48,936 bases of DNA from Candidatus Doudnabacteria bacterium (GTDB lineage Bacteria > Patescibacteriota > Doudnabacteria > UBA920). The notes under the pieces were generated by a model. The model was not told the origin of the DNA, searched no databases, and worked only from the letters and a program-made list of their open reading frames with translations. Made by a program: the position numbers and the translations under genes. The stretch lies in the NCBI GenBank assembly GCA_903908535.1, contig CAIVSE010000077.1:1-48936 (forward strand). Reading direction: 5' to 3'. Positions 4,254 through 17,917 of this stretch are shown piece after piece; position 1 is the stretch's first letter; each line of letters starts with the position of its first letter.

Positions 4254-4298
4254 TGGAGCCCAAGTGCGGAATTGAACCGCAGACCTGCTCCTTACCAT
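4254..4298 (-). pseudogene. 3' half (nt 32-76) of intronless tRNA-Thr(GGU); island att junction
   Basis: ATGGTAA-GGAGC-AGGTCTGCGGTTCAATTCCGCACTTGGGCTCCA; C43 pairs with G27 of the 5' half at 17880-17917. Confidence 0.92.
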
Positions 4299-4359
4299 CA
4301 ATAACCCCGAAGCAATTTTTGCACTTTGTGCAATAATTACAGGGAGAAAATGATTTTTT

Positions 4360-4381
4360 AGTTCACAAATATATACCGTTG
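4360..4381 (+). repeat. Left sub-terminal inverted repeat
   Basis: AGTTCACAAA-TA-TATACCGTTG; partner at 17745-17768 on minus strand. Confidence 0.85.
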
Positions 4382-4487
4382 CTAGGGCCTATTTATAACC
4401 AGTTATATTATAGACAAAGGAGTCTAAAAAAGCACTGCAACAACATATTTAATTTTTAAATGGGCTTACGGCTTAATTTTACATAAT

Positions 4488-5429
4488 TTACTTGAATAAT
4501 GCAACCCGCAGAGCGTTAAGGCCAGACTGCAAATTAGTGTCTGGCAACCATCGCAAATACACATTTATTGTTGTCCGTACGTCTTTGTGCCCCATCATAG
4601 ATGATAACCGCAGCAAGTCTTTTGTGGCCACGTAAAAATTTACGGCAAAGGTGTGGCGAAACCTATGAAGATGGCATTTTAGTCCCGTCGCTTCTTCCAG
4701 TTTTTTTATGAAGTGTTTGCCCCCGTGTTCCGTAAAGTTCCTATCTTCGGAGCTGGAGACCCATAAGTATGGAGTGGTTAGGGTTTTGCGGGCTTCCAGG
4801 TAAGTTCCCAGGTGGCTCATTAAATTTTCTTCAATTGGGACATAGTGGGTAATACGGGACTTTGAGATTTCCGCCCGCACGGTTAAAATTTTATTTTTTA
4901 AATCAAGGTCATCCAGCCGTAAACCGAATAATTCTTCTTTACGAACCCCAGTCATGCTTAGGAAATAAATCATGGTGTTATTTCGGATTCGCTGCAAAAG
5001 ATTCTCCCAAACAATATTGCGGCCCACGGCTAGGCAAATTTTGTCAAACTCCTCCAGTGTGAAAGCCCTTCTATCCGTGTACGAAACTTCTGGGTGCGGA
5101 ATTTTGTCAAAAGGGTTAGCGGTTATATGTCCTCCAATAACCAGCCAATTAAAGAATGAGCTTAACTTCCCCCTTATTGTGGATATGCTTGAATTTTTTA
5201 ATTTGCGGACTATCAGATGTTTGCCGACCTTCCTTTCCCGTGAGTTTAAGTAAGCAAAAAGATTTACCATTAGTTCGGGATTTAAATCTGCGGCCTGAAT
5301 GTCTGGCTTAAATTCAGTCAACAAGCCAAAATTATCCCGATAATTTTTTACGGTTTTTGGGGACTTCCCTTCCAAGTTTTCCGCCTGATTTACAAAATCT
5401 TCAAATAATTGTTTTAAGTTTTTTTCCAT
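4488..5429 (-). CDS. Tyrosine recombinase/integrase (island left end)
   Basis: TGVRKEEL, HRFRHTFA, MMGHKDVRTTINVY catalytic motifs; N-terminal core-binding domain. Confidence 0.95.
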   Translation of the reverse strand: MEKNLKQLFEDFVNQAENLEGKSPKTVKNYRDNFGLLTEFKPDIQAADLNPELMVNLFAYLNSRERKVGKHLIVRKLKNSSISTIRGKLSSFFNWLVIGGHITANPFDKIPHPEVSYTDRRAFTLEEFDKICLAVGRNIVWENLLQRIRNNTMIYFLSMTGVRKEELFGLRLDDLDLKNKILTVRAEISKSRITHYVPIEENLMSHLGTYLEARKTLTTPYLWVSSSEDRNFTEHGGKHFIKKLEEATGLKCHLHRFRHTFAVNFYVATKDLLRLSSMMGHKDVRTTINVYLRWLPDTNLQSGLNALRVALFK

Positions 5430-5595
5430 TGGGAACAGGTCTTTCTTCCAGGTTCTCCAGGCCTTTTTCTACGAATTTATTTATCAGGTCTAGGACTTTC
5501 GCCTGCTCATAGGCAGCTAAAATTTTTACACGCTTGTGTAATTTAGCATCCAGCCTAACCTGTTTTGTGGGGTCGCTTCGTAATTTTGTTGACAT
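5401..5595 (-). CDS. Small ribbon-helix-helix-like DNA-binding protein
   Basis: KQVRLDAKLHKRVKILAAYEQAKVLDLINKFVEKGL fits strand-helix-helix pattern; overlaps integrase start. Confidence 0.6.
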   Translation of the reverse strand: MSTKLRSDPTKQVRLDAKLHKRVKILAAYEQAKVLDLINKFVEKGLENLEERPVPNGKKLKTII

Positions 5596-5639
5596 AAGAG
5601 TTTATAACCGCTTCTATTTCCTTTCATCCCCTCCTTCGG

Positions 5640-5905
5640 CTCATGGAAAGCCTGCTTCTACAATCAGTCAGCATGTCCTTTACAAAACGTTTGGCAAATA
5701 AAACGGGAAAAATAGGATTTGCCACGGCTTTTGGTTATTCACGCTGAATTTTTGTCTGACTAAAAGCGGACTAAAATTACTATTGCCGAACGGGTGAAAG
5801 TCCCCCGTTGTCAAGCGGTCAGACAGAGCGGGGACAATTATCCATTCGCCAATAGTTTGCGGCTGGTTTTTTTCGGGAGACTAACCGACGACTCCCTTCC
5901 ATGAG
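5640..5905. ncRNA. Closed multi-branch structured element upstream of RHH/integrase
   Basis: CTCATGGAA(5640)/TTCCATGAG(5897) closing helix; nested AGTCAG/CTGACT and TGGCAAAT/ATTTGCCA; long hairpin 5779-5857; GGGAG/CTCCC. Confidence 0.45.
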
Positions 5906-5925
5906 GTTGTTGCTTGGGAAAATCC

Positions 5926-6250
5926 AAACAAAAAAACCTAAAAACTACCCATATTCTAATTTTTAGAATACAAATAATTTTTAGGTTTCTCGGCGTTCAA
6001 CTGGCCGCCCTAAAATTTTTACGCTATACACCATTGCAGCCTGTCTGCTCGGATGTTTGACGCCGTTTAGCTTCAATGATTAAAGCTCGCGGTGGAAGGT
6101 TATAGTGTCTCCACTTGGACTGTTTTTAGTCCGTCACCCGCTTTTGTGGCAGGTGTTTACCTAAAGGCTCCGATTATTCCAGGGACGAGCCTAAAAGGGT
6201 TCCAAATATCGTAAAACTTATGAAATTTTAAAAAATCTTCTACTAATAAC
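5926..6250 (-). ncRNA. Putative ~320-nt structured ncRNA or leader
   Basis: Downstream of a sigma70 promoter; six hairpins (AGGCTC/GAGCCT, CACCTGC/GCGGGTG, GGACT/AGTCC, GTGGAG/TTCCAC, AGCTT/AAGCT, CGGCGT/ACGCCG); ends in terminator-like hairpin 5933-5988 plus U-run; no ORF. Confidence 0.5.
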
Positions 6251-6257
6251 TAAGGGT

Positions 6258-6286
6258 ATTTTAAACCGAAGCCGAAAAACTGTCAA
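6258..6286 (-). promoter_or_regulatory. sigma70-type promoter
   Basis: TTGACA-17 bp-TAAAAT. Confidence 0.75.
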
Positions 6287-6311
6287 GAACAAATTACCAG
6301 TTTTCGTGGTA

Positions 6312-6340
6312 TTGCCAAAATAAGCTAAAAGAGTTAATAT
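6312..6340 (+). promoter_or_regulatory. sigma70-type promoter for the cargo operon
   Basis: TTGCCA-17 bp-TAATAT. Confidence 0.6.
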
Positions 6341-6516
6341 TAAAGCACAATTTAATCAGTTTGCCTAACCCCACAGCGGTGCTATGGGCATGGCAAAAAC
6401 CCACTCTCATGCAGCGACGGTCGTCTGTCTTGCTTTAGCCATGAGAGTGGTCTCTGCCCGAAAGGGCAGATGGAGCAAGCGGGCGGCCTTTTTTGATGCC
6501 CGCAGAAAGACTATTT

Positions 6517-7890
6517 ATGAAAAAACTTCTATTGACGATTTTAGTAACAATTTTACTGGCTCCTACTTTGGCTTCGGCTGATGATTTTGAAGGCTTAAGT
6601 TCTTTGGGCAGCCAAACAACCACAACGACTCCAAGTCCTATATCTTTTTACTATGGGGATAACAACCCTTCAACAAATATTACGTTTAAAACCAACTGTA
6701 AAAAATTACCGTCGGTGTCAATTGCTGGATTGCCGGCAGGTGCTTTCACTCCTTCTGTTAGCACTAACCCACGTTCACTCGGTTCCTCCGTTTTGTTTGT
6801 AACAGTTTCATTCGGCGGCGCGTTACTTGAAGAGGGGCAATTTTCAATAAGCATAACCCTAACAGATGCCTGTAATCCAAATTTAACACAAACCACTTTA
6901 TACAATGTAAAAGTTTCAAGCACCTTTGATGTAACAAGTAATTACGTTTTGCCATCTGGATATACCGGCCTTGCCTATAACGCGGCCATCAATTTCCAGT
7001 ATAAAGGAATATATACCCCCTCCGTAAGTTTTACTGGATTACCTGCGGGGATGACTCTTAGCAAGGTGGTGCAAAATTCCCCCAATACCTCCGGCATTAT
7101 TCCCGTGCAGTCTTACTCTGTGATTTTAAGCGGCACCCCAACACAGTCTGGTTTCTTTAACCCACAACTATTTATAACTGACCCGACAACTGATAACACG
7201 GACACATATTCTGACAATTTGTCGCTTACAATTATCCAAAGCTCTAATGCTCCCACAATCCAGGCTTCCACCACTCCAGTCACTAGCAGCCAGCCTGGAA
7301 ATATAACCGACCTGGCAGGGACAAATATAAGCTCTAATGGCACGGTATATATGATTACCGCCAGCGGCCAAAAACGGCCGTATACTTCCGCTGGAGCCTT
7401 CCTGTCTTATGGTTTTAATTCCTGGGCTGACGTTGTTACAGCCAGCTCGGCCGATTTAGCTTTACCAACTGGAAATTTTATTCCACCACGGGACGGGAAG
7501 ATTATCTGTTCCAACAAGGGAAGTGATACGGGCACTTGTTATTTAATTACCAACAGCGAAAAGGCCGCCTTTACCAGTTCGGCGGTATTCACAGGTTTAG
7601 GGTTTAGTTTTTCTAATTCTTTGAGCGGTGACGTTTCTTTCCTAAATTCTGCTCCCAATATAAATTCTGTAACTCAAACTCACCCAGAAGGGGTTTTGTT
7701 AAACAAAGGCGGGACGATTTACCTTGTCGGCAACAATGGCTTGCTGGGAGTTCCCGATGTAAACACTTTGACCTCTTGGGGTTACACTTCCAGCGATTCA
7801 GTGCTTGCTAATTCGGCCGACAATGCTTTGCCGCAAATAGGCGTTATGCCCGCTCATACCGCTGGGGCTTTAAATCCTTTTGGAAACTGA
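6517..7890 (+). CDS. Secreted/surface protein with Ig-like (He_PIG-type) repeats and CPR-type C-terminal repeat domain
   Basis: Signal peptide MKKLLLTIL...ASA, GLPAG / LSGTPT motifs, C-terminal KRPYTSAGAFLSYGF domain; start refined from ORF 6493. Confidence 0.75.
   Translation: MKKLLLTILVTILLAPTLASADDFEGLSSLGSQTTTTTPSPISFYYGDNNPSTNITFKTNCKKLPSVSIAGLPAGAFTPSVSTNPRSLGSSVLFVTVSFGGALLEEGQFSISITLTDACNPNLTQTTLYNVKVSSTFDVTSNYVLPSGYTGLAYNAAINFQYKGIYTPSVSFTGLPAGMTLSKVVQNSPNTSGIIPVQSYSVILSGTPTQSGFFNPQLFITDPTTDNTDTYSDNLSLTIIQSSNAPTIQASTTPVTSSQPGNITDLAGTNISSNGTVYMITASGQKRPYTSAGAFLSYGFNSWADVVTASSADLALPTGNFIPPRDGKIICSNKGSDTGTCYLITNSEKAAFTSSAVFTGLGFSFSNSLSGDVSFLNSAPNINSVTQTHPEGVLLNKGGTIYLVGNNGLLGVPDVNTLTSWGYTSSDSVLANSADNALPQIGVMPAHTAGALNPFGN
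7309..7890 (+). repeat. ~580-bp direct repeat, copy 1
   Basis: Colinear with 12624-13205, many synonymous differences. Confidence 0.9.
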
Positions 7891-7905
7891 TATCAAAAAT
7901 ATTTT

Positions 7906-9036
7906 ATGAACTTCCAGGAATTACAATCAAAGTGGTGGTATAGACTTCTAAAGATTATTTTTGCCTTGGCTTTTGTGGTCGGTGTGATTTTTGCATTTGT
8001 CGCCATTAGCCAGTATTTACCATCTAAAAGCACTCCTGCCGCAAAATCTATATTGAACTTCCAACAATTTTCACAATTACACGACGATGGGTTAAGTGTT
8101 CAACAGATTGTAGATTTTAACCACGTTCTCTATCCCTCATCTTCCAGCACTCCTTCCCAGTCCTCGGTAAAGACACCTTCTTGGCTGACTTACTTTGAAA
8201 TTTTAATTGGAGCTATACTGGTTGAAATAATATTTTTTTGGCTGATTCGTGGAGCGTTTTTGTATATTTTTGTTGGAAAAAAAACTTTAGCCACCAATGG
8301 CGCACTTTTTGGCGCAAAAAAAGCGACTAAAGTAGTTTTGGTGTTGGTTGGTGTTGCGCTGCTTGTTTTTGTAATTGTACGTATTTATTCCACAGTAAAA
8401 AATTACGGAGTAGTAAGTAATCCCGTTATGCCGCCTTCCCTTCAAATGCCAGTTACTGTTTTACCGACTAACGACGCTATTAACGGAAGCGGGACTTACT
8501 CCGATAAATACCCTCTAACATTTTCCGTAACGGGGAATAGCCAACTTACGAGTGAATTGGCCGCTTACGGGGTAATATATAAGGTCTGGCTGGGACTAAC
8601 AGGCTGGACTGGTTCGGGCAGTATCGGGGTAGACGGTAGTAGTGTTGTAAGTTTACATCCTGTTGGCGGGGGTGCCGATTATGGAGAGAGGGTTTCCTAT
8701 TCTGAAATACCCGCCTGCGCTGGATGTATGGAAGAAAACGCCGCACCTTACTTTTCAAGTGCAATGCAGACATACCAAGAATACGATGAAAAAAGTTTTG
8801 GTGTTCCTATAACCGTACCGCAAGGGCTAGAAGTTACGCCTATTTCATCCACGTTAGTAACTTACACATTGCCCGACGCTGACGGTCTGTCAACGCTCGG
8901 CGTGGTCTATTACCTTCCTGGTAGCCAAACAGTCAATGCTTATTACACAGATGCTGAATTTGTTTTGCCTGTGGGAGATACGGATTTATTAAACTTTTTG
9001 GCGCAGAATTTTATTCAGCAGGAAGGGTTAAAATAA
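7906..9036 (+). CDS. Multi-TM protein with C-terminal DUF4850-like domain
   Basis: Three hydrophobic segments; GWTGSGSIGVDGS and IPACAGC motifs. Confidence 0.55.
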   Translation: MNFQELQSKWWYRLLKIIFALAFVVGVIFAFVAISQYLPSKSTPAAKSILNFQQFSQLHDDGLSVQQIVDFNHVLYPSSSSTPSQSSVKTPSWLTYFEILIGAILVEIIFFWLIRGAFLYIFVGKKTLATNGALFGAKKATKVVLVLVGVALLVFVIVRIYSTVKNYGVVSNPVMPPSLQMPVTVLPTNDAINGSGTYSDKYPLTFSVTGNSQLTSELAAYGVIYKVWLGLTGWTGSGSIGVDGSSVVSLHPVGGGADYGERVSYSEIPACAGCMEENAAPYFSSAMQTYQEYDEKSFGVPITVPQGLEVTPISSTLVTYTLPDADGLSTLGVVYYLPGSQTVNAYYTDAEFVLPVGDTDLLNFLAQNFIQQEGLK

Positions 9037-9128
9037 AGTTATTGCGCCAACCTGGTTGGCAGGCCCAAGGCGTCCGGCTCGTGCTTTGACTATAACCCGA
9101 CGATGGGCGGTAGTTAAATTATAATTTT

Positions 9129-9323
9129 ATGGTAAAAAAACTATTGCTAATTATGAAGCCCAGTACAGGGGAAACAGCGGAAGAATTTGCCGCCCGTACT
9201 TGGCAAAACTTGGCAGGCCGAGGTTTAGCAAAAGACGGAAAGCTGGTTTCCCAGGGCGAAATGGGTAAAATTTTAGACAAAGAGCAAACGCTAAAAAATC
9301 AAGACGGCGTTATTCTAGGGTAG
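9129..9323 (+). CDS. Small hypothetical protein
   Basis: 64-aa ORF co-oriented within cargo. Confidence 0.5.
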   Translation: MVKKLLLIMKPSTGETAEEFAARTWQNLAGRGLAKDGKLVSQGEMGKILDKEQTLKNQDGVILG

Positions 9324-9407
9324 GAAGAGGCGGGCTGATTTGTATAATGGCCGAAAAGGGCTATAATATAAGCGGAAATGGATTTTAAAATGGGGGTAAT
9401 TAAATAT

Positions 9408-10412
9408 ATGCCAAAACCAGTAATAATCTTGGGGGCAGGTGCTTCTTATGACTACATTCACAGAGGCGATAGTAACCTTCCGCTTAATCACGAGCCTCCT
9501 TTAGCGAATAACCTTTTTGATAAAAGGTTTGAAGGGATTATTAAGCATTTTCCGCAAGTGATGAACCTTTCAGCCAGCGTGGCCTCGGCTTCACGGCAAG
9601 GAAAAGGATTGGAAGAACTCTTTACAGAGATTCAGGCCAAAAGTTCGCAGAATCCCGAAAGACTGCAACAGCTCATAGCCTGCCAGTTCTATCTGCAAAA
9701 ACTTTTTAGAGATATTACCAGCAATTATGGGAGCCAATCCCAAAATAATTACAGCGAGCTTATTAACCAGATTAGGGACAATGGCGGCCAAGCGTGTGTG
9801 GTAAATTTTAACTATGACTTGCTGTTTGAGCAGGCTACTGGGTACAAATTAGAAAATGTTGGCGATTTTGTCGCCCACCCTATCAAAATAATTAAGGTTC
9901 ACGGGGCCTATAACTGGACTAAAGTTTTGCGGAACGCTTTTCGCATCCCAAGCGACGGTGACACTTACGGCTTTTTGATGAACAACCCAGAACATCTACT
10001 AAAAAATCCATCAGAAGATACAGACCCAATTTATATTCAGGACGGCTACGGTATGACGGATGGCAGTGGAGATAAATACTTCTTTTATCCCTGGATTGCA
10101 ATTCCCATTGCAGATAAAAATACCTTCGTTTGCCCGCCCGACCATCTGGTCGTATTAAAGGAAGCGTTGCGGCAAACCGATAGAATTTTAATTGTGGGAT
10201 GGAAGGCGGCAGACCAACACTTAGTTAAGCTAATGGGAGATGTTGTTCAGCAGGCTGTAAAAATAATTATTGTTAGCGGTTCAGGTAAAACCGCAAGGGA
10301 AATCCAAGCTAAATTATCGGGAGTAATAAACGCCACTTTTCCAAACTCGGTAGCTACGTTCAGCGATTTCGTGGGTAGTCAAATTTGCCAAGAATTTTTT
10401 CAAACCGAATAA
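9408..10412 (+). CDS. SIR2-like (SIR2_2) protein, putative NADase/defence effector
   Basis: IILGAGAS, VNFNYDLLFE, IKVHG motifs; start refined from ORF 9378. Confidence 0.8.
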   Translation: MPKPVIILGAGASYDYIHRGDSNLPLNHEPPLANNLFDKRFEGIIKHFPQVMNLSASVASASRQGKGLEELFTEIQAKSSQNPERLQQLIACQFYLQKLFRDITSNYGSQSQNNYSELINQIRDNGGQACVVNFNYDLLFEQATGYKLENVGDFVAHPIKIIKVHGAYNWTKVLRNAFRIPSDGDTYGFLMNNPEHLLKNPSEDTDPIYIQDGYGMTDGSGDKYFFYPWIAIPIADKNTFVCPPDHLVVLKEALRQTDRILIVGWKAADQHLVKLMGDVVQQAVKIIIVSGSGKTAREIQAKLSGVINATFPNSVATFSDFVGSQICQEFFQTE

Positions 10413-10413
10413 T

Positions 10414-11226
10414 ATGCCCTACCTAAGTTTGCCCTTTGCCAGAAAGACTTGGATTGTAAACGCTACAAAGTTTTGGACCACGCTGGCCTTAATCTTCGCC
10501 CTGCTTGCTCTTGATGTAGTTTGGTTAGTTGTCAGGGCAAAGACTTTAAATTTTCGTATCTTTGTAGTCACCCCTCCCCTGAAAGCCGTAATATCTTTGC
10601 TAATAATTTTGGCCATAGTTGTTCTGTTCATTTGGTTTATGGTTAAAGTGGATGAGCGACTGGACGCCAGGATGGAAAAGTGCTTGGCCAATTATGAACA
10701 CGCCCGCAAAGGTGATGACGGGGAAATCCTGGTACGTAAATATTTAAACCAATATTTGGACGAGAAACAGTACAAAATCTATCCTAATTACAAGATTCCC
10801 GCAGTAAAGGCGGATTATGACTTCGTAGTTGTCGGCCCCAAGGGCGTAATTTTAATAGAAGTTAAAACTTATGACGTCCATACAGTCTTTACCTACGATA
10901 AAGCATATGGCCAATCAGCGGATGGCAAATTATTTTCACTCTGGGATATTCGGGAAAAAGTTAAATGGCGGGCTGGGCAGTTAGAGAGGTATTTGGCCGA
11001 ACACGGCTTGGATAATATCAACGTACGCAAGGTGGTCCTGTTTGTGAATCTCAAATCGGTGGAAATCCAGGGCGGCTGGAAGAATAAATATAAGGTCTAT
11101 GTGGCCCAGGGTATTCCCGCATTTGCTGATTACCTTTTTCGCCAACAGCCAAGCCCCCAGTTTACGCCCGAATATGTTAAACGAGTTTGCGATGCCTTTA
11201 ATATTCAAACTACACCAGCTGTATGA
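10414..11226 (+). CDS. Membrane-anchored NERD nuclease-domain protein
   Basis: Two N-terminal TM helices; GDDGE, DYDFVVVGPKGVILIEVK. Confidence 0.85.
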   Translation: MPYLSLPFARKTWIVNATKFWTTLALIFALLALDVVWLVVRAKTLNFRIFVVTPPLKAVISLLIILAIVVLFIWFMVKVDERLDARMEKCLANYEHARKGDDGEILVRKYLNQYLDEKQYKIYPNYKIPAVKADYDFVVVGPKGVILIEVKTYDVHTVFTYDKAYGQSADGKLFSLWDIREKVKWRAGQLERYLAEHGLDNINVRKVVLFVNLKSVEIQGGWKNKYKVYVAQGIPAFADYLFRQQPSPQFTPEYVKRVCDAFNIQTTPAV

Positions 11227-11807
11227 TTAACGACATCTTGGAACAAACCGCAGAGGACTATTTTCGGCATTTGGGATATTTCACCCAGCACAACGTTAAG
11301 TATAAGCCGAACAAGAAGGGGCCTGCTTACGCCGTCCATTCCGACATAGATATAATCGGCATTAACCCCACTAAACGTGGTATAGAGCGGGTTGTGGTGG
11401 TAAGCTGTAAGAGCTGGCACGGCGGCATACGGATAAAAGGTTCCCTAGATGCCATAAAAAGGAGTTTAAGGAGAACAAGGAAGATTTACCGTGAAGTAGC
11501 CCAGCCGTACTGGTCAAAGGCTTTAAAAGATAAAGTCTACGAGCTGACTGACCAAAAAACTTTCGTCTTCTATTTTTGTTGTACCAGGTACGATAAACGG
11601 CATAGGGAACTGTGGGAGGGTGACAAAGAGTTTCGGAAAAATCTGGCTGGCTGTAAGATTAAACTACTGGACTTTGAAGAAATGGCCACGGCCATATGGC
11701 CCGAAATGCACATTATTACACCTTCCAACAGCGAACTCGGCAGGCTGTTCCAGTTCATCCACTTTAGCGGCGGGAAATTACATTATAAGGATTTAATTAA
11801 AAAATAA
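11223..11807 (+). CDS. PD-(D/E)XK restriction-endonuclease-like protein
   Basis: LEQTAEDYFRHLGY...SDIDIIG...VVSCKSW; ATGA overlap with NERD gene. Confidence 0.7.
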   Translation: MINDILEQTAEDYFRHLGYFTQHNVKYKPNKKGPAYAVHSDIDIIGINPTKRGIERVVVVSCKSWHGGIRIKGSLDAIKRSLRRTRKIYREVAQPYWSKALKDKVYELTDQKTFVFYFCCTRYDKRHRELWEGDKEFRKNLAGCKIKLLDFEEMATAIWPEMHIITPSNSELGRLFQFIHFSGGKLHYKDLIKK

Positions 11808-11822
11808 TTAAGCCAAAACTTT

Positions 11823-13205
11823 ATGAAAAAAATTTATGTCAGCCTCTTCGTTCTTGTGCTTTGCTTGGCCTTCTATGCGCCCAATGCTAAAGCAGAAAAT
11901 CAAGCGTTTCAAATAATAACAACATCGCCTTTGCCCAATGCTTCCCTTGCTGATTATTATTCAGCTACCATTAAATATATTTATAGCGGCATTTGTGACC
12001 CTATTGTTACTACTCAAGGACTACCGCCGGGCATCAATTTAGGAAGTGGCTCAGTAAATGCTACTGATTTAGGCTCAACCACTCTAGTGGGTGCTCCAAC
12101 ACAAGAGGGGGTCTATACGGTTAAGTTTTATTTAAGTGATTCTTGCGGTTCCACCTTAGAACAAGATTTTAGCCTAACAGTAGTAAGTTATGTTCAAAAA
12201 GTTACAACTACTCAGGCAGGGGGCGCAACTACTGGTTTTCCTTACAATTCTACAATTAGCTTTGACTGGTTTGGCCCCACTGTCCCCGCAACAATAGTTT
12301 CAGGTTTGCCCCCAGGAATTGCCTCAAGCATTCCAGTTATGACCCCTGTTCAACAGGCTTCGGTTAGTGGCTTTTCGGACGCCATAACTTTGACCGGCAC
12401 GCCAACCCAAGCTGGTGTCTATAATGTTTTGGTTACAGTAACTGACCCTACTGCAAGTACAACTTTAGATTATCCTTTATCCATAGGCGCAAATCCATAT
12501 GCGTCCAATAATCCGCAACCAGCCGCTAGTCCAACATCCGTTCCAACGCCAATAGTTTCGAATCCCGCCATAACTAATCAAACAACCCCCACAACCGTAA
12601 ACCAAACATCAACCAGCGGCACAGACCCCGCCGGCACAAATGTTATCTCTAACGGTATAGTCTATGAAATAACCGCCAGCGGCCAAAAACGGCCATATAC
12701 TTCGGCTGGAGCTTTCTTGTCTTACGGTTTTAACTCCTGGGCCAATGTAGTTACAGCCAGTTCCGCCGATTTAGCTTTGCCCACGGGGAATTTTATCCCG
12801 CCACGTGACGGGAAGATTATTTGCTCCAACAAAGGAAGCGATATGGGAACTTGTTACCTAATTACAGATAGCAAAAAAGCCGCCTTTACCAGTGCGGCCG
12901 TGTTTACAGGTTTAGGATTTAGTTTCTCCAATTCCTTGAGCGGTGATGTTTCCTTTTTACCATCTGCCCCAAATATCAGCTCTGCCAGCCAGTTGCATCC
13001 TGCGGGCATTTTAGTAAATAAGGGCGGCACAATTTACCTCACAGGCGATAATGGACTGCTTGGTGTGCCAGATATGGCCACACTGACCTCTTGGGGTTAT
13101 TCCTTAACCGATTCTGTCCCCGCCAATGCCGCCGATTCAGCTACGGCGCAAAGCGGCGTAATGACAGCTCACACGGCTGGGGCGTTGAACCCATTTGGTA
13201 ATTGA
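11823..13205 (+). CDS. Paralogous Ig-like surface protein
   Basis: Signal peptide, GLPPG / LTGTPT repeats, same C-terminal domain as 6517-7890. Confidence 0.75.
   Translation: MKKIYVSLFVLVLCLAFYAPNAKAENQAFQIITTSPLPNASLADYYSATIKYIYSGICDPIVTTQGLPPGINLGSGSVNATDLGSTTLVGAPTQEGVYTVKFYLSDSCGSTLEQDFSLTVVSYVQKVTTTQAGGATTGFPYNSTISFDWFGPTVPATIVSGLPPGIASSIPVMTPVQQASVSGFSDAITLTGTPTQAGVYNVLVTVTDPTASTTLDYPLSIGANPYASNNPQPAASPTSVPTPIVSNPAITNQTTPTTVNQTSTSGTDPAGTNVISNGIVYEITASGQKRPYTSAGAFLSYGFNSWANVVTASSADLALPTGNFIPPRDGKIICSNKGSDMGTCYLITDSKKAAFTSAAVFTGLGFSFSNSLSGDVSFLPSAPNISSASQLHPAGILVNKGGTIYLTGDNGLLGVPDMATLTSWGYSLTDSVPANAADSATAQSGVMTAHTAGALNPFGN
12624..13205 (+). repeat. ~580-bp direct repeat, copy 2
   Basis: Colinear with 7309-7890. 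Confidence 0.9.
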
Positions 13206-13226
13206 TGGTTATTAAAGTTTTATAGT

Positions 13227-14222
13227 ATGGCCGTCCTGTTTTTCCAAAATAAGTTTCATCCAAAAGTTAAGTATGGCCCGAATTTTGATTTAGAGGCCAG
13301 TTTCCTTTCTGAAAAAGGGGTGGCTTTTGAAGGGGAAGGTGGATTTTTTGCCATCAGTATGAACTTTGGAGGAGACCCTTATTTTGCACCAGTTCCAAAC
13401 CCTCCCGAAATTTCTTTAAAGGATTGGGTTTTAAAAAGTTTTGGGGATGGTAATCCGACAGAGCACGGGACTGTCCCTGGTGTATGTTATAAGCGGATTT
13501 GGAGGCCTGGTATAAATAACTATTATAACCGTGGTTTTGAAAAAACAATTTCGCAGAAGGAACTTACCCAATCATCCGTTTCCTTGCAGATTTTACTGGA
13601 TAAATTAGAGAGTTTGTTTGAATTTTTAGAGCCGAGCGAGCAAAATGAATCCGCATATGGTCATAGAATAAGAGAAATTATTTTGTTAGCTTCTATGGAA
13701 GTTGAATCTGCTTGGTCTGCGGTTCTCAGGGATAATGGTTATACATCGGAGCAGGATTTTAATACCAAGGATTATGTTAAACTTCTAAACCCAATGTTTT
13801 TGGATGGATATAAATTATCTCTCCAGCAATATCCCCAATTTAGCCCTTTTAGTCCTTTTGAAGGCTGGAACCCCGCTGCCCCGACCCATTCTTTAATTTG
13901 GTATGATGCCTACAACAAAATAAAACATGACAGAGAGAAAAACCTGCCTTTGGCTACATTGCAAAATGCTATTACGTCAGTTGGTGCAGCGGCGGTAATG
14001 TACAGAGCGCAATTTGGATTTAATAGACCATTTACTTGGACCCAGCAACCAAAACCGCCTTTTATAGACAGTATATTTTCGCTAGAGACGAGTGACGGAT
14101 TCAAAAAATACGAAAAAGATTTTTATATATCAAAATTAGGCCTTCGCCAGTCTGGTTCCACTATTGAGCTTGACCATGGTCCCGCCCAAAACTGGACAAT
14201 ACTAAATTATAAATTTGATTAA
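13227..14222 (+). CDS. Hypothetical protein with HEPN-like motif
   Basis: LLASMEVES followed by WYDAYNKIKHDRE. Confidence 0.5.
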   Translation: MAVLFFQNKFHPKVKYGPNFDLEASFLSEKGVAFEGEGGFFAISMNFGGDPYFAPVPNPPEISLKDWVLKSFGDGNPTEHGTVPGVCYKRIWRPGINNYYNRGFEKTISQKELTQSSVSLQILLDKLESLFEFLEPSEQNESAYGHRIREIILLASMEVESAWSAVLRDNGYTSEQDFNTKDYVKLLNPMFLDGYKLSLQQYPQFSPFSPFEGWNPAAPTHSLIWYDAYNKIKHDREKNLPLATLQNAITSVGAAAVMYRAQFGFNRPFTWTQQPKPPFIDSIFSLETSDGFKKYEKDFYISKLGLRQSGSTIELDHGPAQNWTILNYKFD

Positions 14223-14339
14223 CGAAAAGCTACTTCCTGTAATTAGACTTATGGGAAGTCGGAGCGTATTTTGTATAAAAAAACCGTAGAACCTTTTAGA
14301 GGAACTACGGTAGGTGTTTGGCTTGATGGTCGGTGATGC

Positions 14340-15158
14340 CTACTTCCCGAACAGCCAGTGAAAGTCCTGTAACGTAGAAGTAATTAGGTCGTAGACGAAC
14401 AACCCAAATATTATCAACATTCCAGCCAGTCGGTACAGAGCCAGCAACAAGCGTGGGGCCTTAATCTTTTCTAATGACGTTTCTATAATACGTCCACCGT
14501 CCAGCGGCAGAAATGGCAGCGTGTTCATCAATCCCAAACAAAGGGACAAAGTGCAAGCCATCATCACCCCTTTGGTAAAGTTCAGGTTGTAATGGTAAAC
14601 ATCGGCAGCAAGTTTTAAGTATCCGCCGTTTGACTTAAATGCTTCGGGGTGAAAAACGGAGGCGTGGGCCATAAGAGCTAATAAGCACAGCCCCAAGAGC
14701 GGAACCCCGTATCGGCAGAATTGTTTCTTTAGCGGCAGTAAAACTAAGGCCATAACTGCACAGGCTCCAGCTATTCGGTAGTCGGCCATTGTCAGTTCGC
14801 AGACAGCCAGAACCACGAGTGGATAAAAGATACTCCCCCAAACACCCGCCCCGTAAATCACGGAGGATTCGCTGTAAGGCAGCCACCGTTGTATTTTCAG
14901 GCTGTCCCTGGTTGAGTTCTTGACGTAAGCCATAAACGGCAGGATGTTGAGGTAAAACGGCGTGTTGGGTAGCAGCCAAGGAATACTAAGCCGCAGCCGA
15001 GGCCAAGATGTGATTGGTACCCCAAAGCCCCATTCTCTGACCCTGAGCCCACGTTTTAACATCTCACGGGCGTGTTCATACTCGTGGAGCAGAACAAAAA
15101 TAACCGTAACCAAAATACACGTCACCAAGCCAAGCATATTTGTCCCCCTTTGACTCAC
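14340..15158 (-). CDS. Site-2 protease family (M50) membrane metallopeptidase
   Basis: HEYEH in a TM helix and NTLPFLPLDGG. Confidence 0.85.
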   Translation of the reverse strand: MSQRGTNMLGLVTCILVTVIFVLLHEYEHAREMLKRGLRVREWGFGVPITSWPRLRLSIPWLLPNTPFYLNILPFMAYVKNSTRDSLKIQRWLPYSESSVIYGAGVWGSIFYPLVVLAVCELTMADYRIAGACAVMALVLLPLKKQFCRYGVPLLGLCLLALMAHASVFHPEAFKSNGGYLKLAADVYHYNLNFTKGVMMACTLSLCLGLMNTLPFLPLDGGRIIETSLEKIKAPRLLLALYRLAGMLIIFGLFVYDLITSTLQDFHWLFGK

Positions 15159-15227: not shown

Positions 15228-15614
15228 TTAAACATCCTGGTCCGCACTGTTTTTTGCTGAATAATCTGTAATGTTAATTATGAAGGGTTGACTTTCGGCG
15301 TTACCCAACTCTTGTCGTGGGCTAAACTCTTTCTTTAGTTTGCGTTCCAAATACCATTTCGCTTCGTTTGAGTTGTCCAAACTCTCCACAATTGTTTGAC
15401 GGGCTTTTAAAATTGGCTGTTGCCGCAGTCCGTCAATTTTGTCGGAAAATTCGGGTTTTTCTTTCAAAAAATTATAGAAGGTATCCCTGCTGATTCCCGC
15501 AAAGGAACAGGCTTCTTCGGCCGTTGCGTCAATGGCAAAAGCCGTCTCCAGTTTTCGGACAACGGTTGCCGTCATCACCGATGGCCTGCCAACTTTTTTA
15601 GTTTTAGATTTCAT
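15228..15614 (-). CDS. HTH protein resembling a phage terminase small subunit
   Basis: N-terminal GRPS, HTH EEACSFAGISRDTFYNF, AKWYLERK; directly follows the integrase stop. Confidence 0.55.
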   Translation of the reverse strand: MKSKTKKVGRPSVMTATVVRKLETAFAIDATAEEACSFAGISRDTFYNFLKEKPEFSDKIDGLRQQPILKARQTIVESLDNSNEAKWYLERKLKKEFSPRQELGNAESQPFIINITDYSAKNSADQDV

Positions 15615-16520
15615 TTAAAAGTTCACCCCCTGAAAGGTTGCGTAATAGCGGGGTAAGTCCGCTTTATGCTTTATATTGTCGTTGTATACCTGTAACATCT
15701 CCAGGCTTTTGTGTCTGGTGTATTGGGCAACTTCCAACAAGTCGCCTTTATAAGTTTTAATTAACATGGTAGTAAAGTAGTGCCTGAGGCCGTGGACACA
15801 TTTTGTAATATTGAGTTCGCCAAGCAGGCATTTTACAATTTGTCTTAACGCCCTGGTTGTCAGCCTGTGATTTATGCTGTTGTTGCTCCTGCTGGTGAAC
15901 AGCGGGCCACTGCCAACCTTATTGGCTTTAGCATAAATCTTTAAATTTTTAACCGTTTCGGGATGCAGGTTGATAATTTCCTTGTCATCTCTCCCCTTTC
16001 CCCGCACAAAGGCTACCCCACTTACAAGGTCTAAATCTTTTACGTCCAGCCTAGCAATTTCTATCTGCCGTAATCCTTGCAGGGTTAAAAGGCTAAAAAT
16101 GGCCTTTAGGCGTGAGCTTTCGGGATTTTCGGGTAAAGATTGGAGTTTTTGCGAAACGCTTTGGATTTCGGCTTCTGTAAGGCCGTCTCGTTTATGCTTC
16201 TTGCTTTGGTTAAAACTTTTTACGTTTTGGGTGATGTCTGCGGGTAAAGCCCCTTGTCGGTTAAGCTCCTTTAGGAAGATTTTGGCTGCCGCCAAATATT
16301 TGTTTTTAGTCGCTGTGCTGTAATCGTTACGACCGTCCAAATACCGTTTGAACTTTAAAAAGCTGTTGCGGTCAAAGCCTTCCCTTTGGATGAAGCCCAC
16401 GAACATACCAATGCGGCACTGGTAATCTTTCCGTGTGCCTTCGCTAACATCTAGGTTTTCAAAAATCCTTGCGGCTTGCTGTTCGGGGTTGCTTATGACT
16501 TGTAGAGTTTTAGTGTCCAT
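15615..16520 (-). CDS. Tyrosine recombinase
   Basis: QGLRQIEI, RGKGR, HGLRHYF, TRHKSLEMLQVY. Confidence 0.92.
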   Translation of the reverse strand: MDTKTLQVISNPEQQAARIFENLDVSEGTRKDYQCRIGMFVGFIQREGFDRNSFLKFKRYLDGRNDYSTATKNKYLAAAKIFLKELNRQGALPADITQNVKSFNQSKKHKRDGLTEAEIQSVSQKLQSLPENPESSRLKAIFSLLTLQGLRQIEIARLDVKDLDLVSGVAFVRGKGRDDKEIINLHPETVKNLKIYAKANKVGSGPLFTSRSNNSINHRLTTRALRQIVKCLLGELNITKCVHGLRHYFTTMLIKTYKGDLLEVAQYTRHKSLEMLQVYNDNIKHKADLPRYYATFQGVNF

Positions 16521-16524
16521 ATGA

Positions 16525-17418
16525 TTATAAATTATTTAATGGGTGTTTGGTCATTTGCGAACGTAAATGTTCGGCACTGGCTGACAAATAAATTGTCGTG
16601 GTCTTAATGTCCGAGTGTCCCATCATTCGGGAAAGGCTGTAAATGTCGCATCCGCCTTCCAGCATCAGCGTGGCAAAAGTGTGCCGCAGCTTATGAATGG
16701 TAAACTTAATTTTTGACGCTTTAACCATAGTTAGCAAGAGTCTTTTTAAGCCGCTGTCCGTGAATCCTTTATCGTGGTTCAGGGAGATAAAAAATTCTGG
16801 GCAAGTCCTTTTTAGCCGCTTCCGCTCTTCCAGGTATTTTTGCAGACTTTCCGCCAGCTTATAGCATATCGGCAGGATTCTATCCTTACCGCCTTTCCCC
16901 TGCCGAATAAATATGGATAAATTTTCCAGGTCAACGTCGGTATACTTTAAATTTAGCAGTTCCTTTTTCCTTATGCCCGACAGGATGAAGGTGGAAAATA
17001 TGGCGTGGTTCCTGTAACGCAGGAATTTATAAGAATACGGGAAATTGTACGAGACTTCCAAAATTTTCATCGCTTCCTGCCGAGTCAGTTTTGGCGGCAG
17101 TCTTTTCTCCAGCTTTGGGATTTCTATGTCGTCCGTGGGGTTAAACTGCATATAACCCTCTTTCACGCACCACCTAAAGAATACGGCTAAAGATTTGTGG
17201 TAGCAGATGAACGTGTTGGGCGTCCAACCTTGGGAAGTCCTGCCGTAGTAGAATAATTCCCGTGTATTGTCTTTGGTGACCTGCTCCAATTCCTCTATGC
17301 CCGCAAACCTCGTATAATAATTTATTACCTGTTTGTAGCGTTTTAATGTCGGTTTTGAATAGCCTTTTATGTACTGCGAATAATCGCAAAACTTTTGGGC
17401 TAATGTCGCTATTTGCAT
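16525..17418 (-). CDS. XerC/D-like tyrosine recombinase
   Basis: SGIRKKEL, GKGGKDR, HKLRHTFAT, MMGHSDIKTTTIY. Confidence 0.95.
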   Translation of the reverse strand: MQIATLAQKFCDYSQYIKGYSKPTLKRYKQVINYYTRFAGIEELEQVTKDNTRELFYYGRTSQGWTPNTFICYHKSLAVFFRWCVKEGYMQFNPTDDIEIPKLEKRLPPKLTRQEAMKILEVSYNFPYSYKFLRYRNHAIFSTFILSGIRKKELLNLKYTDVDLENLSIFIRQGKGGKDRILPICYKLAESLQKYLEERKRLKRTCPEFFISLNHDKGFTDSGLKRLLLTMVKASKIKFTIHKLRHTFATLMLEGGCDIYSLSRMMGHSDIKTTTIYLSASAEHLRSQMTKHPLNNL

Positions 17419-17420
17419 AT

Positions 17421-17452
17421 AAAAAACACTCCAACGTTAATTGCAGTGTTTT
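17421..17452 (-). terminator. Terminator-like hairpin between island tRNA and integrase
   Basis: AAACACT...AGTGTTT plus T-run just before the integrase ATG. Confidence 0.55.
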
Positions 17453-17456
17453 CTAC

Positions 17457-17741
17457 TGGAGCCCAAGTGCGGAATTGAACCGCAGACCTTCTCCTTCACT
17501 TTTACCTCAATTTCTAACTGGCTACCTGGCCGCCAGTTGTTATATAAGGGTTAGACTGTATCTTACGCTTACCGTAAAGGTTTAGCGTTCCTTGTCAGTC
17601 GTTCGGGCGATTGCTCGCCACGGTCTTGGCCATTGCGGGCTATTAACCGTAATTCGGATTTCATTAAAATGTTTCCATTTTAACGGGCAAGCCTCTTGTA
17701 AGGCCACCATGGAGATGCTCTACCAACTGAGCTACTTGGGC
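17457..17741 (-). tRNA. Intron-containing tRNA-Thr(GGU): exon1 17741-17706 (nt 1-36), exon2 17496-17457 (nt 37-76)
   Basis: Joined exons give a 76-nt cloverleaf with anticodon stem TCTCC/GGAGA, loop ATGGTAA and encoded CCA. Confidence 0.93.
17497..17705 (-). ncRNA. Group I self-splicing intron, 209 nt, no homing endonuclease
   Basis: 5' splice after U with U.G in P1 (GGU/GCC), GAAA-capped P2, P4 ACGGU/ACCGU, P6, P7 GACUG/CAGUC, S-like AAGAUACAGUCUA, P8, P9, terminal G. Confidence 0.9.
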
Positions 17742-17744
17742 AAA

Positions 17745-17768
17745 CAACGGTATAAATTTTTGTGAACT
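17745..17768 (-). repeat. Right sub-terminal inverted repeat
   Basis: AGTTCACAAA-AATT-TATACCGTTG on minus strand; two identical 10-mers shared with 4360-4381. Confidence 0.85.
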
Positions 17769-17879
17769 TTGACCAGCCCACGACCTGTTTAGGGCGGAAC
17801 AGGGTCATCCTACTCTTCTCTTTTGGCATTTCTGCTTTTGGATTAGAGCAATTCCTTGATAACAAGCAGGGCCTGTTTA

Positions 17880-17917
17880 TTACCATGGAGCTGCTCTACC
17901 AACTGAGCTACTTGGGC
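17880..17917 (-). pseudogene. 5' half (nt 1-38) of intronless tRNA-Thr(GGU); island att junction
   Basis: GCCCAAGTAGCTCAGTTGGTAGAGCA-GCTCC-ATGGTAA then unrelated sequence. Confidence 0.92.

What the first reader, a model, noticed from the sequence alone, without database searches (positions are those of the whole stretch)
4254..17917. Island that splits tRNA-Thr(GGU) and replaces it with an intron-protected copy
Seen: 17917-17880 (nt 1-38) and 4298-4254 (nt 32-76) overlap by exactly the 7-nt anticodon loop ATGGTAA and join into a perfect intronless tRNA-Thr(GGU) with a G27-C43 pair. Inside the island, 138 nt from the right core, is a complete tRNA-Thr(GGU) that differs only by a compensatory T27-A43 pair and a group I intron within the core. 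Established: tRNA-targeting tyrosine-integrase elements normally rebuild the gene using a tRNA fragment in attP. Here the deduced attP (GGTTATTG-ATGGTAA-TAAAC on minus strand) has no tRNA sequence beyond the core. Inference: the element destroys the host gene and complements it with a copy whose att core is broken in DNA but restored in RNA by splicing. This would block self-integration or superinfection and give an endonuclease-free intron a means of spreading.
Basis: partly seen in the sequence, partly recalled or inferred. Interest (0 to 1): 0.92.

Follow-up and report, generated by a model that had tools for sequence, protein, structure and literature searches.

The report
Island splits tRNA, carries intron-bearing spare
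A 13.6-kb mobile island has cut this small bacterium's threonine tRNA gene in two at the anticodon loop and carries its own full copy of that tRNA, interrupted by a self-splicing-type intron exactly where the island's recombinase would cut; this is a new twist on a trick recently described in some phages.

Summary
On the minus strand, 17917-17880 and 4298-4254 overlap by ATGGTAA and join into a 76-nt tRNA-Thr(GGU). The copy at 17741-17457 differs only at the 27/43 pair and has a 209-nt intron after U36.

The intron folds as a group I intron. Covariation across 28 homologues supports this, although Rfam's model misses it.

The island belongs to a large family not found in the phage or plasmid collections searched. 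It is built around two Xer-like tyrosine recombinases, int1 and int3. Related genomes show all three site states:
- intact tRNA (empty sites in G001 and G010)
- split halves that pair perfectly (8 of 9 loci)

Destroying a tRNA gene and complementing it is already known as tRNA-dependent lysogeny in actinophages (PMC10865867). An element-delivered intron that blocks an att site was proposed for an archaeon (PMC3293823).

New here are the bacterial group I intron in the complementing tRNA, the two-recombinase element family, and comparative support for the shielding idea. Intron-bearing copies keep the target sequence (15 of 18). Intronless copies behind a stub have changed it (13 of 14). That support is correlative only, and mobility was not observed.

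The parts
17880..17917 (-). Host tRNA-Thr(GGU) 5' half, nt 1-38 (attL). The 7-bp core ATGGTAA lies at 17886-17880.
   Evidence: The S2, EF-Ts, TPR, tRNA-Thr gene order is kept in G001, G010, G034, G028 and G100.
17742..17879 (-). Element left end. It holds the P' arm TAAACAGGCCCT (17879-17868) and the 138-nt spacer. The spacer contains a second AAACAGGTC repeat and, just before the cargo tRNA, a CCGTTGT remnant of an older tRNA start.
   Evidence: 20 of 32 stub junctions begin TAAA(C/T), counted by eye. Homologous spacers are present in G034, G028, G039, G084 and G139.
17457..17741 (-). Element-borne tRNA-Thr(GGU) gene: exon 1 at 17741-17706, group I intron at 17705-17497 (209 nt, between U36 and A37), exon 2 at 17496-17457.
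   Evidence: the spliced exons are called tRNA-Thr(GGU). (P1-P9 supported by covariation; U.G at the 5' splice site in 28/28; the last intron base G is invariant).
16525..17418 (-). int1, a Xer-like tyrosine recombinase (297 aa) and the marker gene of the element family.
   Evidence: Pfam PF00589, 2.8e-29. Below the NCBIfam XerC/XerD/XerA cut-offs. R150, K175, H242, R245, H268 and Y277 are invariant. 247 relatives were found in genome contigs.
15615..16520 (-). int2, a second tyrosine recombinase (301 aa) found in only some elements.
   Evidence: A homologue was seen in L046 (51% identity) and none in G034.
15228..15614 (-). 128-aa protein resembling a small terminase subunit. It is probably a DNA-binding accessory factor; this role is inferred.
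   Evidence: phrog_4102, 6.3e-20. Homologues lie next to int1 in G034 (50% identity) and L046 (43%).
6493..15158 (.). Cargo genes: secreted repeat/Ig-like proteins, two NERD-domain proteins, an M50-peptidase-like protein and unknowns. No phage structural or conjugation genes were recognised.
6362..6488 (+). LOOT RNA (Rfam RF03000), which recurs inside elements of this family.
   Evidence: 55.9 bits against a gathering score of 46.4. Also found in G034, L066, L046, L085, L104 and L108.
4488..5429 (-). int3, a Xer-like tyrosine recombinase (313 aa) at the far end of the island.
   Evidence: A homologue lies just before the far half in 9 of 9 split loci, and just before attP in the contiguous forms.
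4299..4312 (-). P arm of the element (...GGGGTTATTG), directly before the core.
   Evidence: P arms of other far ends and of attP forms likewise end in (T/G)TT(G/A).
4254..4298 (-). Host tRNA-Thr(GGU) 3' half, nt 32-76 with CCA (attR). The core lies at 4298-4292.
   Evidence: A Logan contig covers 4195-4465 with no difference.
4227..4248 (-). Terminator-like hairpin after the displaced 3' half.

Best explanation
**What it is.** A 13.6-kb integrative island inserted by site-specific recombination into the 7-bp anticodon loop (ATGGTAA) of the host's tRNA-Thr(GGU) gene. It belongs to a widespread family defined by two Xer-like tyrosine recombinase genes, int3 and int1. In the circular form these genes flank the attachment site.

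**How it handles the tRNA.**
- The element's attP shares only the 7-bp core, plus a short AGGTC-containing arm, with the tRNA. Integration therefore leaves two dead halves at the island ends.
- The element carries its own complete tRNA-Thr(GGU) gene with a terminator, between attP and int1. This copy stands in for the destroyed gene.
- In this element, and in about half of its tRNA-Thr relatives, that copy has a 209-nt group I intron between U36 and A37. The DNA therefore lacks an intact core, while the spliced RNA is a normal tRNA.

**Shown:** the anatomy, the three site states in related genomes, and the intron fold.

**Inferred:**
- the copy is expressed, spliced and needed
- int1 and int3 act together on the site
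- the broken core keeps the element's recombinases from using its own tRNA as a target (my odds about 0.45)
For: **The split gene**
- The halves join to tRNA-Thr(GGU), and the cargo copy differs only at 27/43.
- No other tRNA-Thr(GGU) was found in the 87.7%-complete genome.

**The three site states in related genomes**
- attB: empty sites with an intact intronless tRNA after the same TPR gene, in G001 and G010.
- attL/attR: split halves with full pairing in 8 of 9 loci. An int3 homologue lies just before the far half in 9 of 9.
- attP: a contiguous int3-P|core|P'-tRNA-int1 arrangement.

**The recombinases.** All of them keep the residues R, K, H, R, H and Y.

**The intron**
- 93.2% of cells are paired, against 32-46% in the slid controls.
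- 41 of 69 pairs carry compensatory changes.
- P4 and P7 are invariant.
- U.G at the 5' splice site in 28/28.

**The shield**
- Intron-bearing copies share positions 29-31 plus the loop with their stub in 15 of 18 loci. Intronless copies do so in 1 of 14 (Fisher 3.9e-5, uncorrected for relatedness).
- The two states interleave on the int1 tree (14 changes).
- The only 2 intronless copies with a target-like site (G090, L055) lack the stub and spacer. That is the product expected if the core in the stub recombined with the copy's own core.
- P1 pairs only with GGU, so the intron does not itself constrain positions 29-31.

**Precedent.** PMC10865867 (abstract, discussion and passages read).
Against: **No direct sign of mobility or function**
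- No excision, circle or empty site was seen for this organism. Only low-depth contigs were available.
- Expression and splicing are untested.
- The Rfam group I model scores 13 bits, and no consensus promoter was found in the spacer.
- The genome is incomplete, so another tRNA-Thr(GGU) copy cannot be excluded. Whether the cell needs this isoacceptor is unknown, since CGU and UGU genes exist.

**Observations that do not fit neatly**
- In G034 the far half does not pair with the stub.
- Cargo exons equal the host-lineage tRNA in G000/G010 and in G100. A simple travelling-cargo picture does not explain this.

**Weaknesses of the shield argument**
- Intronless elements exist, so the intron is not needed.
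- Phylogenetically independent pairs are few: 4-5 go the same way and 0 the other (p 0.06-0.125).
- The second target-likeness measure was defined after seeing the data.
Confidence: 0.8

Rival explanations
1. The island and the complementation are as described, but the intron is only a passenger. It is an ordinary selfish or neutral tRNA-Thr(GGU) intron of these bacteria that came along when the element picked up a host tRNA gene. The broken core has no selected role.
For: - The same intron sits in native tRNA clusters, with no stub or integrase, in G046, G051, G071 and G145.
- 20 of 80 related loci manage with intronless tRNA-Thr.
- Cargo exons look host-derived.
- Native and element-borne introns intermingle on a weakly resolved tree.
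- The independent-pairs test does not reach 0.05.
Against: - Intronless copies behind a stub have almost always changed the anticodon stem or loop (13 of 14). Intron-bearing copies have not (15 of 18 the same).
- Both intronless, target-like copies are in the collapsed configuration without stub and spacer.
- P1 does not explain the conservation of positions 29-31.
Confidence: 0.4
2. There are two unrelated events. An older scar (stub plus spacer) lies upstream of a native intron-containing tRNA. Separately, a standard island (int1 to int3) integrated into that tRNA's 3' exon, with the 40-45-bp repeat 17496-17457 / 4293-4254 as its att duplication.
For: - tRNA followed by int1, with a distant 3' repeat, is the classic island layout.
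- G039 has stub, spacer and intron tRNA but no integrase.
- G090 and L055 have an intact tRNA directly before int1.
Against: - The far copy carries the full loop ATGGT before AAGGAG, i.e. it derives from an intronless gene.
- The stub G27 and far-half C43 pair with each other, not with the T27-A43 of the intron copy.
- In loci where the cargo tRNA differs strongly from the host (L053, L085, L108), the far half pairs with the stub and not with the cargo.
- P', spacer, tRNA and int1 travel together next to int3 in the attP forms.
Confidence: 0.06
3. The arrangement is old, fixed and no longer mobile. It is inherited vertically, and gene conversion keeps the stub, exons and far half alike.
For: - int1 divergence among genera (67-72%) is about that of the neighbouring EF-Ts and S2 genes.
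- The stub equals the 5' exon over 31 nt in 8 of 18 loci.
- No excision was observed.
Against: - Only 7 of 146 genomes of the order carry it, scattered over genera. The same-genus G001 has an intact tRNA at the empty site.
- int1 relatives at 62-73% identity occur in records titled as many phyla.
- The cargo differs between G000, G034 and G100.
- The halves, the arms and all three recombinase genes are intact.
Confidence: 0.1
4. It is an assembly artefact of a metagenome bin: repeats of tRNA sequence joined DNA from different strains.
For: - The window is a MAG contig.
- The contig begins inside tRNA-like repeats.
- G034's unmatched far half could be such a chimera.
Against: - The repeats are only 36-40 bp.
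- Both flanks keep the Thr...Tyr neighbourhood of relatives.
- An X1 contig bridges 4195-4465 without difference.
- The same architecture recurs in independent assemblies, including long contigs.
Confidence: 0.02

Closest known systems
tRNA-dependent lysogeny of actinobacteriophages (Fionnbharth, Cluster L, Gaia; Guerrero-Bustamante and Hatfull 2024, PMC10865867; abstract, discussion and passages read)
   Same: - A tyrosine integrase recombines at an attB inside a tRNA gene.
- attP shares only a short core (about 8-10 bp there, 7 bp here), so no tRNA is rebuilt.
[quoted passage not shown]
   Different: - There: temperate phages, lambda-like integrases with arm-binding domains, attB in the 3' half of tRNA-Lys or tRNA-Leu, no intron, and experimental proof.
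- Here: a 13.6-kb island with no recognised phage structural genes, two or three short Xer-like recombinases, a core that is the anticodon loop of tRNA-Thr(GGU), a complementing tRNA that sits next to attP and carries a group I intron, and no experiment.
Canonical tRNA-targeting genomic islands (Islander, PMC4383910; abstract seen in the search listing)
   Same: A tyrosine recombinase, a tRNA gene as target, and a displaced tRNA fragment marking the far end.
   Different: The canonical attP carries the 3' part of the tRNA and regenerates the gene at the junction. Here the junction is dead (stub followed by TAAACAGG) and a separate full gene is supplied.
Caldiarchaeum subterraneum tRNA-Thr(GGU) locus model (Sugahara et al. 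2012, PMC3293823; passages read) and the Randau-Soll idea that introns at att sites block integration (as cited there)
   Same: - The same tRNA species.
- An intron tied to an integrating element.
- The explicit proposal that the intron protects the site and benefits the integrated element.
   Different: - There: an archaeon, a protein-spliced intron lying inside attP so that the rebuilt host gene gains it.
- Here: a bacterium, a self-splicing-type group I intron in a separate cargo gene, with the host gene left split.
Bacterial tRNA group I introns (cyanobacterial tRNA-Leu(UAA) and tRNA-fMet, Azoarcus tRNA-Ile, Agrobacterium tRNA-Arg; recalled, no call)
   Same: - A small intron (about 200 nt) in the anticodon loop with no open reading frame.
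- A short P1 that includes the anticodon.
- A U.G pair at the 5' splice site, a terminal G, and a P3-P9 core.
   Different: - The host tRNA is Thr(GGU). My searches found no paper describing that.
- It is below Rfam's threshold.
- It is carried on a mobile island across records of several phyla.
XerC/XerD and other paired tyrosine recombinases
   Same: - About 300-aa recombinases with a SAM-like N-domain and the full catalytic set.
- Two paralogues (about 29% identical) associated with one site, which has inverted arms around a 7-bp centre.
   Different: - They score below the XerC, XerD and XerA cut-offs.
- They are encoded by the element itself, on either side of attP.
- That they act as a pair is inferred from co-occurrence alone.

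Membership tests
Tyrosine recombinase (Pfam PF00589) | Catalytic domain match above Pfam's cut-off | tested here: met
   int1 scores 102.5 bits, int2 71.1 and int3 82.6, against a cut-off of 27.1.
Tyrosine recombinase (Pfam PF00589) | Catalytic residues R, K, H-x-x-R, H and the nucleophile Y | tested here: met
   R150, K175, H242, R245, H268 and Y277 (int1 numbering) are invariant in int1, int2, int3 and two int3 homologues. Assigning these as the catalytic set is by position and rests on recall.
XerC / XerD / XerA (NCBIfam equivalogs) | Score above the curated cut-off | tested here: not met
   int1 scores 173 (cut-off 335), 163 (330) and 180 (220). int2 and int3 score lower.
Group I intron | U at the end of the 5' exon, paired with G in P1 | tested here: met
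   Columns 36-57 form U.G in 28 of 28 sequences, and the two neighbouring pairs are G-C in 28 and 27 of 28.
Group I intron | Terminal G of the intron | tested here: met
   G245 of the first row, directly before A246 and A247, is an invariant column in 28 sequences.
Group I intron | Conserved core P3-P8 with the P3/P7 pseudoknot | tested here: met
   P3, P5, P6, P8 and P9 show compensatory changes. P4 and P7 are invariant and 100% paired. The slid controls give 32-46% paired. The structure was drawn by me on G000, which favours it on the 'cells paired' measure.
Group I intron | Match to Rfam RF00028 at the gathering score | tested here: not met
   13.1 bits against 50. There was no hit at E 0.01 or below in 8 related loci. 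Only the J8/7-P7 stretch aligns.
Group I intron | Self-splicing with guanosine | not testable with these tools
   This needs in vitro transcription and a splicing assay.
tRNA-dependent lysogeny-type integration | Short common core, with no functional tRNA at attL or attR | tested here: met
   The core is 7 bp. The stub is followed by TAAACAGG and the far half is preceded by GTTATTG. ARAGORN finds no tRNA at either junction.
tRNA-dependent lysogeny-type integration | [quoted passage not shown] | tested here: met
   The spliced exons are called tRNA-Thr(GGU).
tRNA-dependent lysogeny-type integration | The element's tRNA is required for the carrier to survive | not testable with these tools
   The only supporting fact is that no other GGU gene was found in an 87.7%-complete genome.
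tRNA-dependent lysogeny-type integration | The element is a temperate phage | tested here: not met
   Pfam and PHROGs recognise no capsid, tail or large terminase. There is only a small-terminase-like 128-aa protein and one PHROG of unknown function.
Canonical tRNA-restoring island | attP carries the tRNA 3' part, so that the junction regenerates the gene | tested here: not met
   After the core, the P' arm shares only A at +3 and AGGTC at +6 to +10 with the tRNA. It has no T arm and no acceptor strand.

The most novel reading that the evidence does not exclude
The group I intron works as an anti-self-targeting device. By splitting the 7-bp crossover core in DNA, it lets the element keep a tRNA copy that is otherwise identical to its own integration target. 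Elements without the intron must instead mutate the anticodon stem or loop of their copy.

The same element family would then act as a vehicle carrying an endonuclease-free intron between phyla. After the island is lost through the 40-bp exon repeat, the intron-bearing tRNA would stay behind in the chromosome. G039 would be an intermediate of this process, and the native intron tRNAs of G046, G051, G071 and G145 would be end states.
Probability: 0.35. Interest if true: 0.85.

Novelty: new variant of a known kind. Interest (0 to 1): 0.72.

Why it matters
**Range of the strategy.** If the reading holds, destroying a tRNA gene and complementing it is not confined to actinophages. It would be used by a large, uncharacterised family of islands in many bacterial phyla, including ultra-small Patescibacteria. 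There, one tRNA gene per isoacceptor makes the host dependent on the island.

**A testable role for a bacterial group I intron.** Such a role has long been hard to find. Here the intron could hide a recombination site in DNA while restoring the sequence in RNA. The family contains natural controls, because intronless copies have altered stems or loops.

**A route for intron spread.** It suggests how introns that lack homing endonucleases could spread between genomes.

**A possible tool.** The two-recombinase module with a defined 7-bp core and short arms could be of interest for site-specific integration.

**Where to test it.** Cultured carriers exist by record title: Niastella populi CCTCC AB 208238 with the intron form, and Ruegeria atlantica HKCCD9103 with an intronless form. 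Bench tests are therefore feasible.

Tried and rejected
**Reads.** The look-up of sequencing runs gave only partial holders (share 0.24 or less), all kept as Logan contigs. Read laying on 3500-19500 showed the organism at about 2-5x in short contigs. The joints listed there have short sides (21-29 letters) and look like other organisms' tRNAs or introns. No empty site or circle junction could be sought properly, and no conclusion is drawn from uncovered parts.

**Rfam.** The group I model does not reach threshold in the window or in 8 related loci. I therefore derived the fold by hand and tested it by covariation.

**Promoter scan.** No consensus promoter for the cargo tRNA was found.

**Plasmid and phage collections.** Both returned only XerD-like hits at about 33% identity. 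The element type could not be named from them.

**Independent-pairs test.** There were too few well-supported pairs for significance.

**Intron tree.** It is poorly resolved, with 2 starred branches, and is used only as a weak hint.

**Junction pattern hits.** The hits in G001 (two) and G027 were chance matches in non-tRNA DNA and were dropped.

**Limits of my classifier.**
- It missed the stub of L115, which is visible.
- It could not score L088, whose stub is cut by the contig end.
- It did not include G028, G039 and G084. All three have stubs sharing positions 29-31 plus the loop with the exon (G028 differs from its exon at one D-loop position).
- The large difference counts (13-20) for some rows are alignment offsets caused by D-loop length.

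**Ideas considered and set aside.**
- That the intron's guide sequence forces the TCC stem: P1 covers only GGU.
- That the stub plus spacer is a decayed intron tRNA: it has no T arm or acceptor strand.

**Literature.** Searches found no paper on a group I intron in bacterial tRNA-Thr, or on an intron in a complementing tRNA. The library lacks most subscription journals, and supplements are closed. One search, on LOOT, returned only irrelevant hits.

Full report
**The observation.** The window is the whole of contig C77 of a 1.04-Mb, 93-contig genome that is 87.7% complete. On the minus strand there are three tRNA-related pieces:
- 17917-17880 is a tRNA 5' piece. It ends with the loop ATGGTAA and runs straight into TAAACAGG.
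- 4298-4254 begins with the same ATGGTAA, preceded by GTTATTG, and continues as a tRNA 3' half with CCA.
- 17741-17457 holds both exons of the same tRNA around 209 extra bases.

A script joined the halves through the shared 7 nt. ARAGORN called the product tRNA-Thr(GGU). The spliced exons give the same call and differ only at 27 (G/T) and 43 (C/A). Default ARAGORN and Rfam see none of these pieces. The genome otherwise holds only Thr(CGU) and Thr(UGU) genes.

**The intron.** Rfam's group I model gives only 13.1 bits (gathering score 50) and aligns little beyond the J8/7-P7 stretch. It finds nothing at E 0.01 or below in 8 related loci. I therefore aligned 28 homologous intron tRNAs, drew P1-P9 on the window's copy, and counted pairs:
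- 93.2% of cells are paired, against 32-46% when partners are slid.
- 41 of 69 pairs have changes on both sides.
- P2, P8 and P9 covary at nearly every pair. P3 shows C-G to U-A switches. P4 and P7 are invariant.
- The last exon base U pairs with G in 28 of 28.
- The last intron base is an invariant G.
- P1 uses only the anticodon GGU.

This is a small group I intron, too short to hold an open reading frame, inserted between U36 and A37. It cuts the 7-bp loop 5+2. Self-splicing itself is untested.

**The island.** Three tyrosine recombinases are present: int1 (16525-17418), int2 (15615-16520) and int3 (4488-5429). All are Xer-like but below the XerC, XerD and XerA cut-offs, and all keep R, K, H, R, H and Y. 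Next to int2 is a 128-aa small-terminase-like protein. The cargo includes NERD-domain proteins, Ig-like secreted proteins, an M50-like peptidase and a LOOT RNA. No phage structural or conjugation genes were recognised. Island GC is 43.2%, against 46.7-48.7% in the flanks.

**Relatives in the same order.** The S2, EF-Ts, TPR, tRNA-Thr(GGU) neighbourhood is conserved.
- G001 (same genus) and G010 have an intact intronless tRNA there. These are empty sites.
- Seven of 146 genomes carry stub, P' arm, spacer and intron tRNA: G000, G028, G034, G039, G084, G100 and G139.
- int1 follows wherever the contig continues, except in G039.
- G100 has a 24.9-kb island with other cargo. Its stub and far half pair perfectly and share an unusual acceptor stem.
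- The intron is found in 11 of 146 genomes. The six in the window's family are all element-borne. G046, G051, G071 and G145 have it in ordinary tRNA clusters without stub or integrase.
- G039 has stub, spacer and intron tRNA but no integrase. A non-element flank follows its CCA. This fits island loss through the 40-bp exon/far-half repeat.

**The wider family.** A scan of species-representative genomes found 247 int1 relatives. The best 80 (62-73% identity) carry record titles from Patescibacteria, Ignavibacteria, Bacteroidota, Myxococcota, Alphaproteobacteria, Chlamydiae and one archaeal assembly. MAG labels may be wrong. No relative above about 33% identity is in the plasmid or phage collections.

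Of the 80 loci:
- 25 have an intron-bearing tRNA-Thr ending about 40 nt before int1.
- 20 have an intronless tRNA-Thr there.
- 34 have none. Many of these lie next to tRNA-Lys, Ala or Pro.
- 1 is unclear.

About 150 nt upstream of the tRNA-Thr lies a core followed by a conserved arm with consensus TAAACAGGTCTA. Left of the core there are two alternatives:
- A tRNA 5' half, often clearly different from the adjacent full tRNA. In that case the stub is host and the tRNA is cargo.
- Non-tRNA DNA ending in GTT(T/G)(A/G), with an int3 homologue just upstream.

Far halves were found in 9 loci. Eight pair fully with their stub (one scored 6/7 because of a window offset). All 9 have an int3 homologue just before them. 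In genomes with the attP form, the native tRNA-Thr(GGU) is intact and has the loop TTGGTAA. That loop does not match the element's ATGGTAA core.

**Mechanism.**
- *Shown by anatomy and comparison:* recombination at a 7-bp core in the anticodon loop, an attP that cannot rebuild the gene, and a full same-isotype tRNA carried between attP and int1.
- *Inferred:* int1 and int3 act together on inverted arms around the core, as XerC and XerD do. The cargo tRNA replaces the lost gene.

This is the logic of tRNA-dependent lysogeny, proven for actinophages (PMC10865867; abstract, discussion and passages read). That paper does not involve introns.

**Does the intron shield the copy?**
- Behind a stub, intron-bearing copies share positions 29-31 plus the loop with the stub in 15 of 18 loci. 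They are identical to it over 31 nt in 8 of 18.
- Intronless copies share these positions in 1 of 14 and are never identical. They have GCC, ACC or CGC stems, or a TTGGTAA loop. Fisher's test gives 3.9e-5, not corrected for relatedness.
- The two states interleave on the int1 tree, with 14 changes.
- Independent pairs go the same way in 4-5 cases and never the other way, but p is only 0.06-0.125.
- Over all 47 copies the counts are 24/26 against 2/21. This uses a target definition chosen after seeing the data.
- The two intronless, target-like copies (G090, L055) both lack the stub and spacer. That is the product expected if the stub core recombined with the copy's own core.

I put the shield reading at about 0.45. 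The passenger reading remains strong, because the intron also lives in native genes and the element can do without it. The idea has an archaeal precedent at the same tRNA species (PMC3293823; passages read).

**Unexplained.**
- The cargo exons in G000 equal G010's native tRNA.
- In G000 and G100, a 7-9-nt remnant of the usual element tRNA start lies just upstream of a host-type tRNA. This suggests exon replacement by an unknown route.
- G034's far half does not fit its stub.
- How the attP-form copies are held in chromosomes is unknown.

**Verdict.** The mechanism is a new variant of a known kind. The intron shield is plausible, testable and unproven.

Noticed in passing
window 6362-6488 (+); L016 11885-12007; L066 2157-2278; L046 9721-9838; L085 12459-12578; L104 12568-12698; L108 15982-16094: LOOT RNA (Rfam RF03000; function unknown as far as I recall) lies inside elements of this family in 7 of the 17 sources scanned with Rfam: the window, 8 sources and 8. 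It seems to be a regular component of the element.
   Followed up: partly
window 1-76 (minus strand): The contig starts inside a tRNA-Thr(UGU) gene. Just before it lies a 23-nt fragment of another tRNA 5' end. This may be a second integration scar, or the reason the assembly broke here.
   Followed up: no
window about 17745-17751; L040 about 18172-18181: Directly upstream of the cargo tRNA, G000 and G100 keep 7-9 nt of the usual element tRNA start (CCGTTGT / GCCGTTGTA). A tRNA with the host lineage's acceptor stem then follows. It looks as if the exons were swapped for host-type ones.
   Followed up: partly
L042 4740-5034 (minus); L016 15145-15230: G090 has a roughly 209-nt intron in its tRNA-Tyr(GUA) gene by ARAGORN. 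The same-genus G034 has the intronless gene with matching exons. tRNA introns seem to be polymorphic in this group.
   Followed up: no
G000 contigs C54 16606-16889, C76 5864-6200, C67 1399-2717: ARAGORN with the intron option proposes further intron-containing tRNAs elsewhere in the genome. These were not checked. The MAG's ARAGORN set has no Asn, Asp or Met (CAU) tRNA genes.
   Followed up: no
L097; L070, L071, L074, L079, L083, L086, L101, L102, L117, L120; L078, L109; L072: int1 relatives use other targets. L097 has a stub of tRNA-Thr(CGU) plus a full intronless tRNA-Thr(CGU). Many others lie 120-200 nt after tRNA-Lys, and some after tRNA-Ala or tRNA-Pro.
   Followed up: partly
L123 (-642 and -488 relative to int1); L059 (-3682 to -3418): L123 has two successive stubs, each with its own P' arm, before the intron tRNA. 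L059 has a second intron tRNA beside its int3. These may be tandem or nested elements.
   Followed up: no
L041 8349-9911 (+): In G100 a 520-aa ORF abuts and overlaps the displaced tRNA 3' half on the host side. From its N-terminal motif it looks to me like a large serine recombinase (not searched). It may mark another mobile element at the same hotspot.
   Followed up: no
window 5401-5595 (-): A 64-aa ORF overlaps the start of int3. It was not searched against any family. It could be a small regulator or directionality factor.
   Followed up: no
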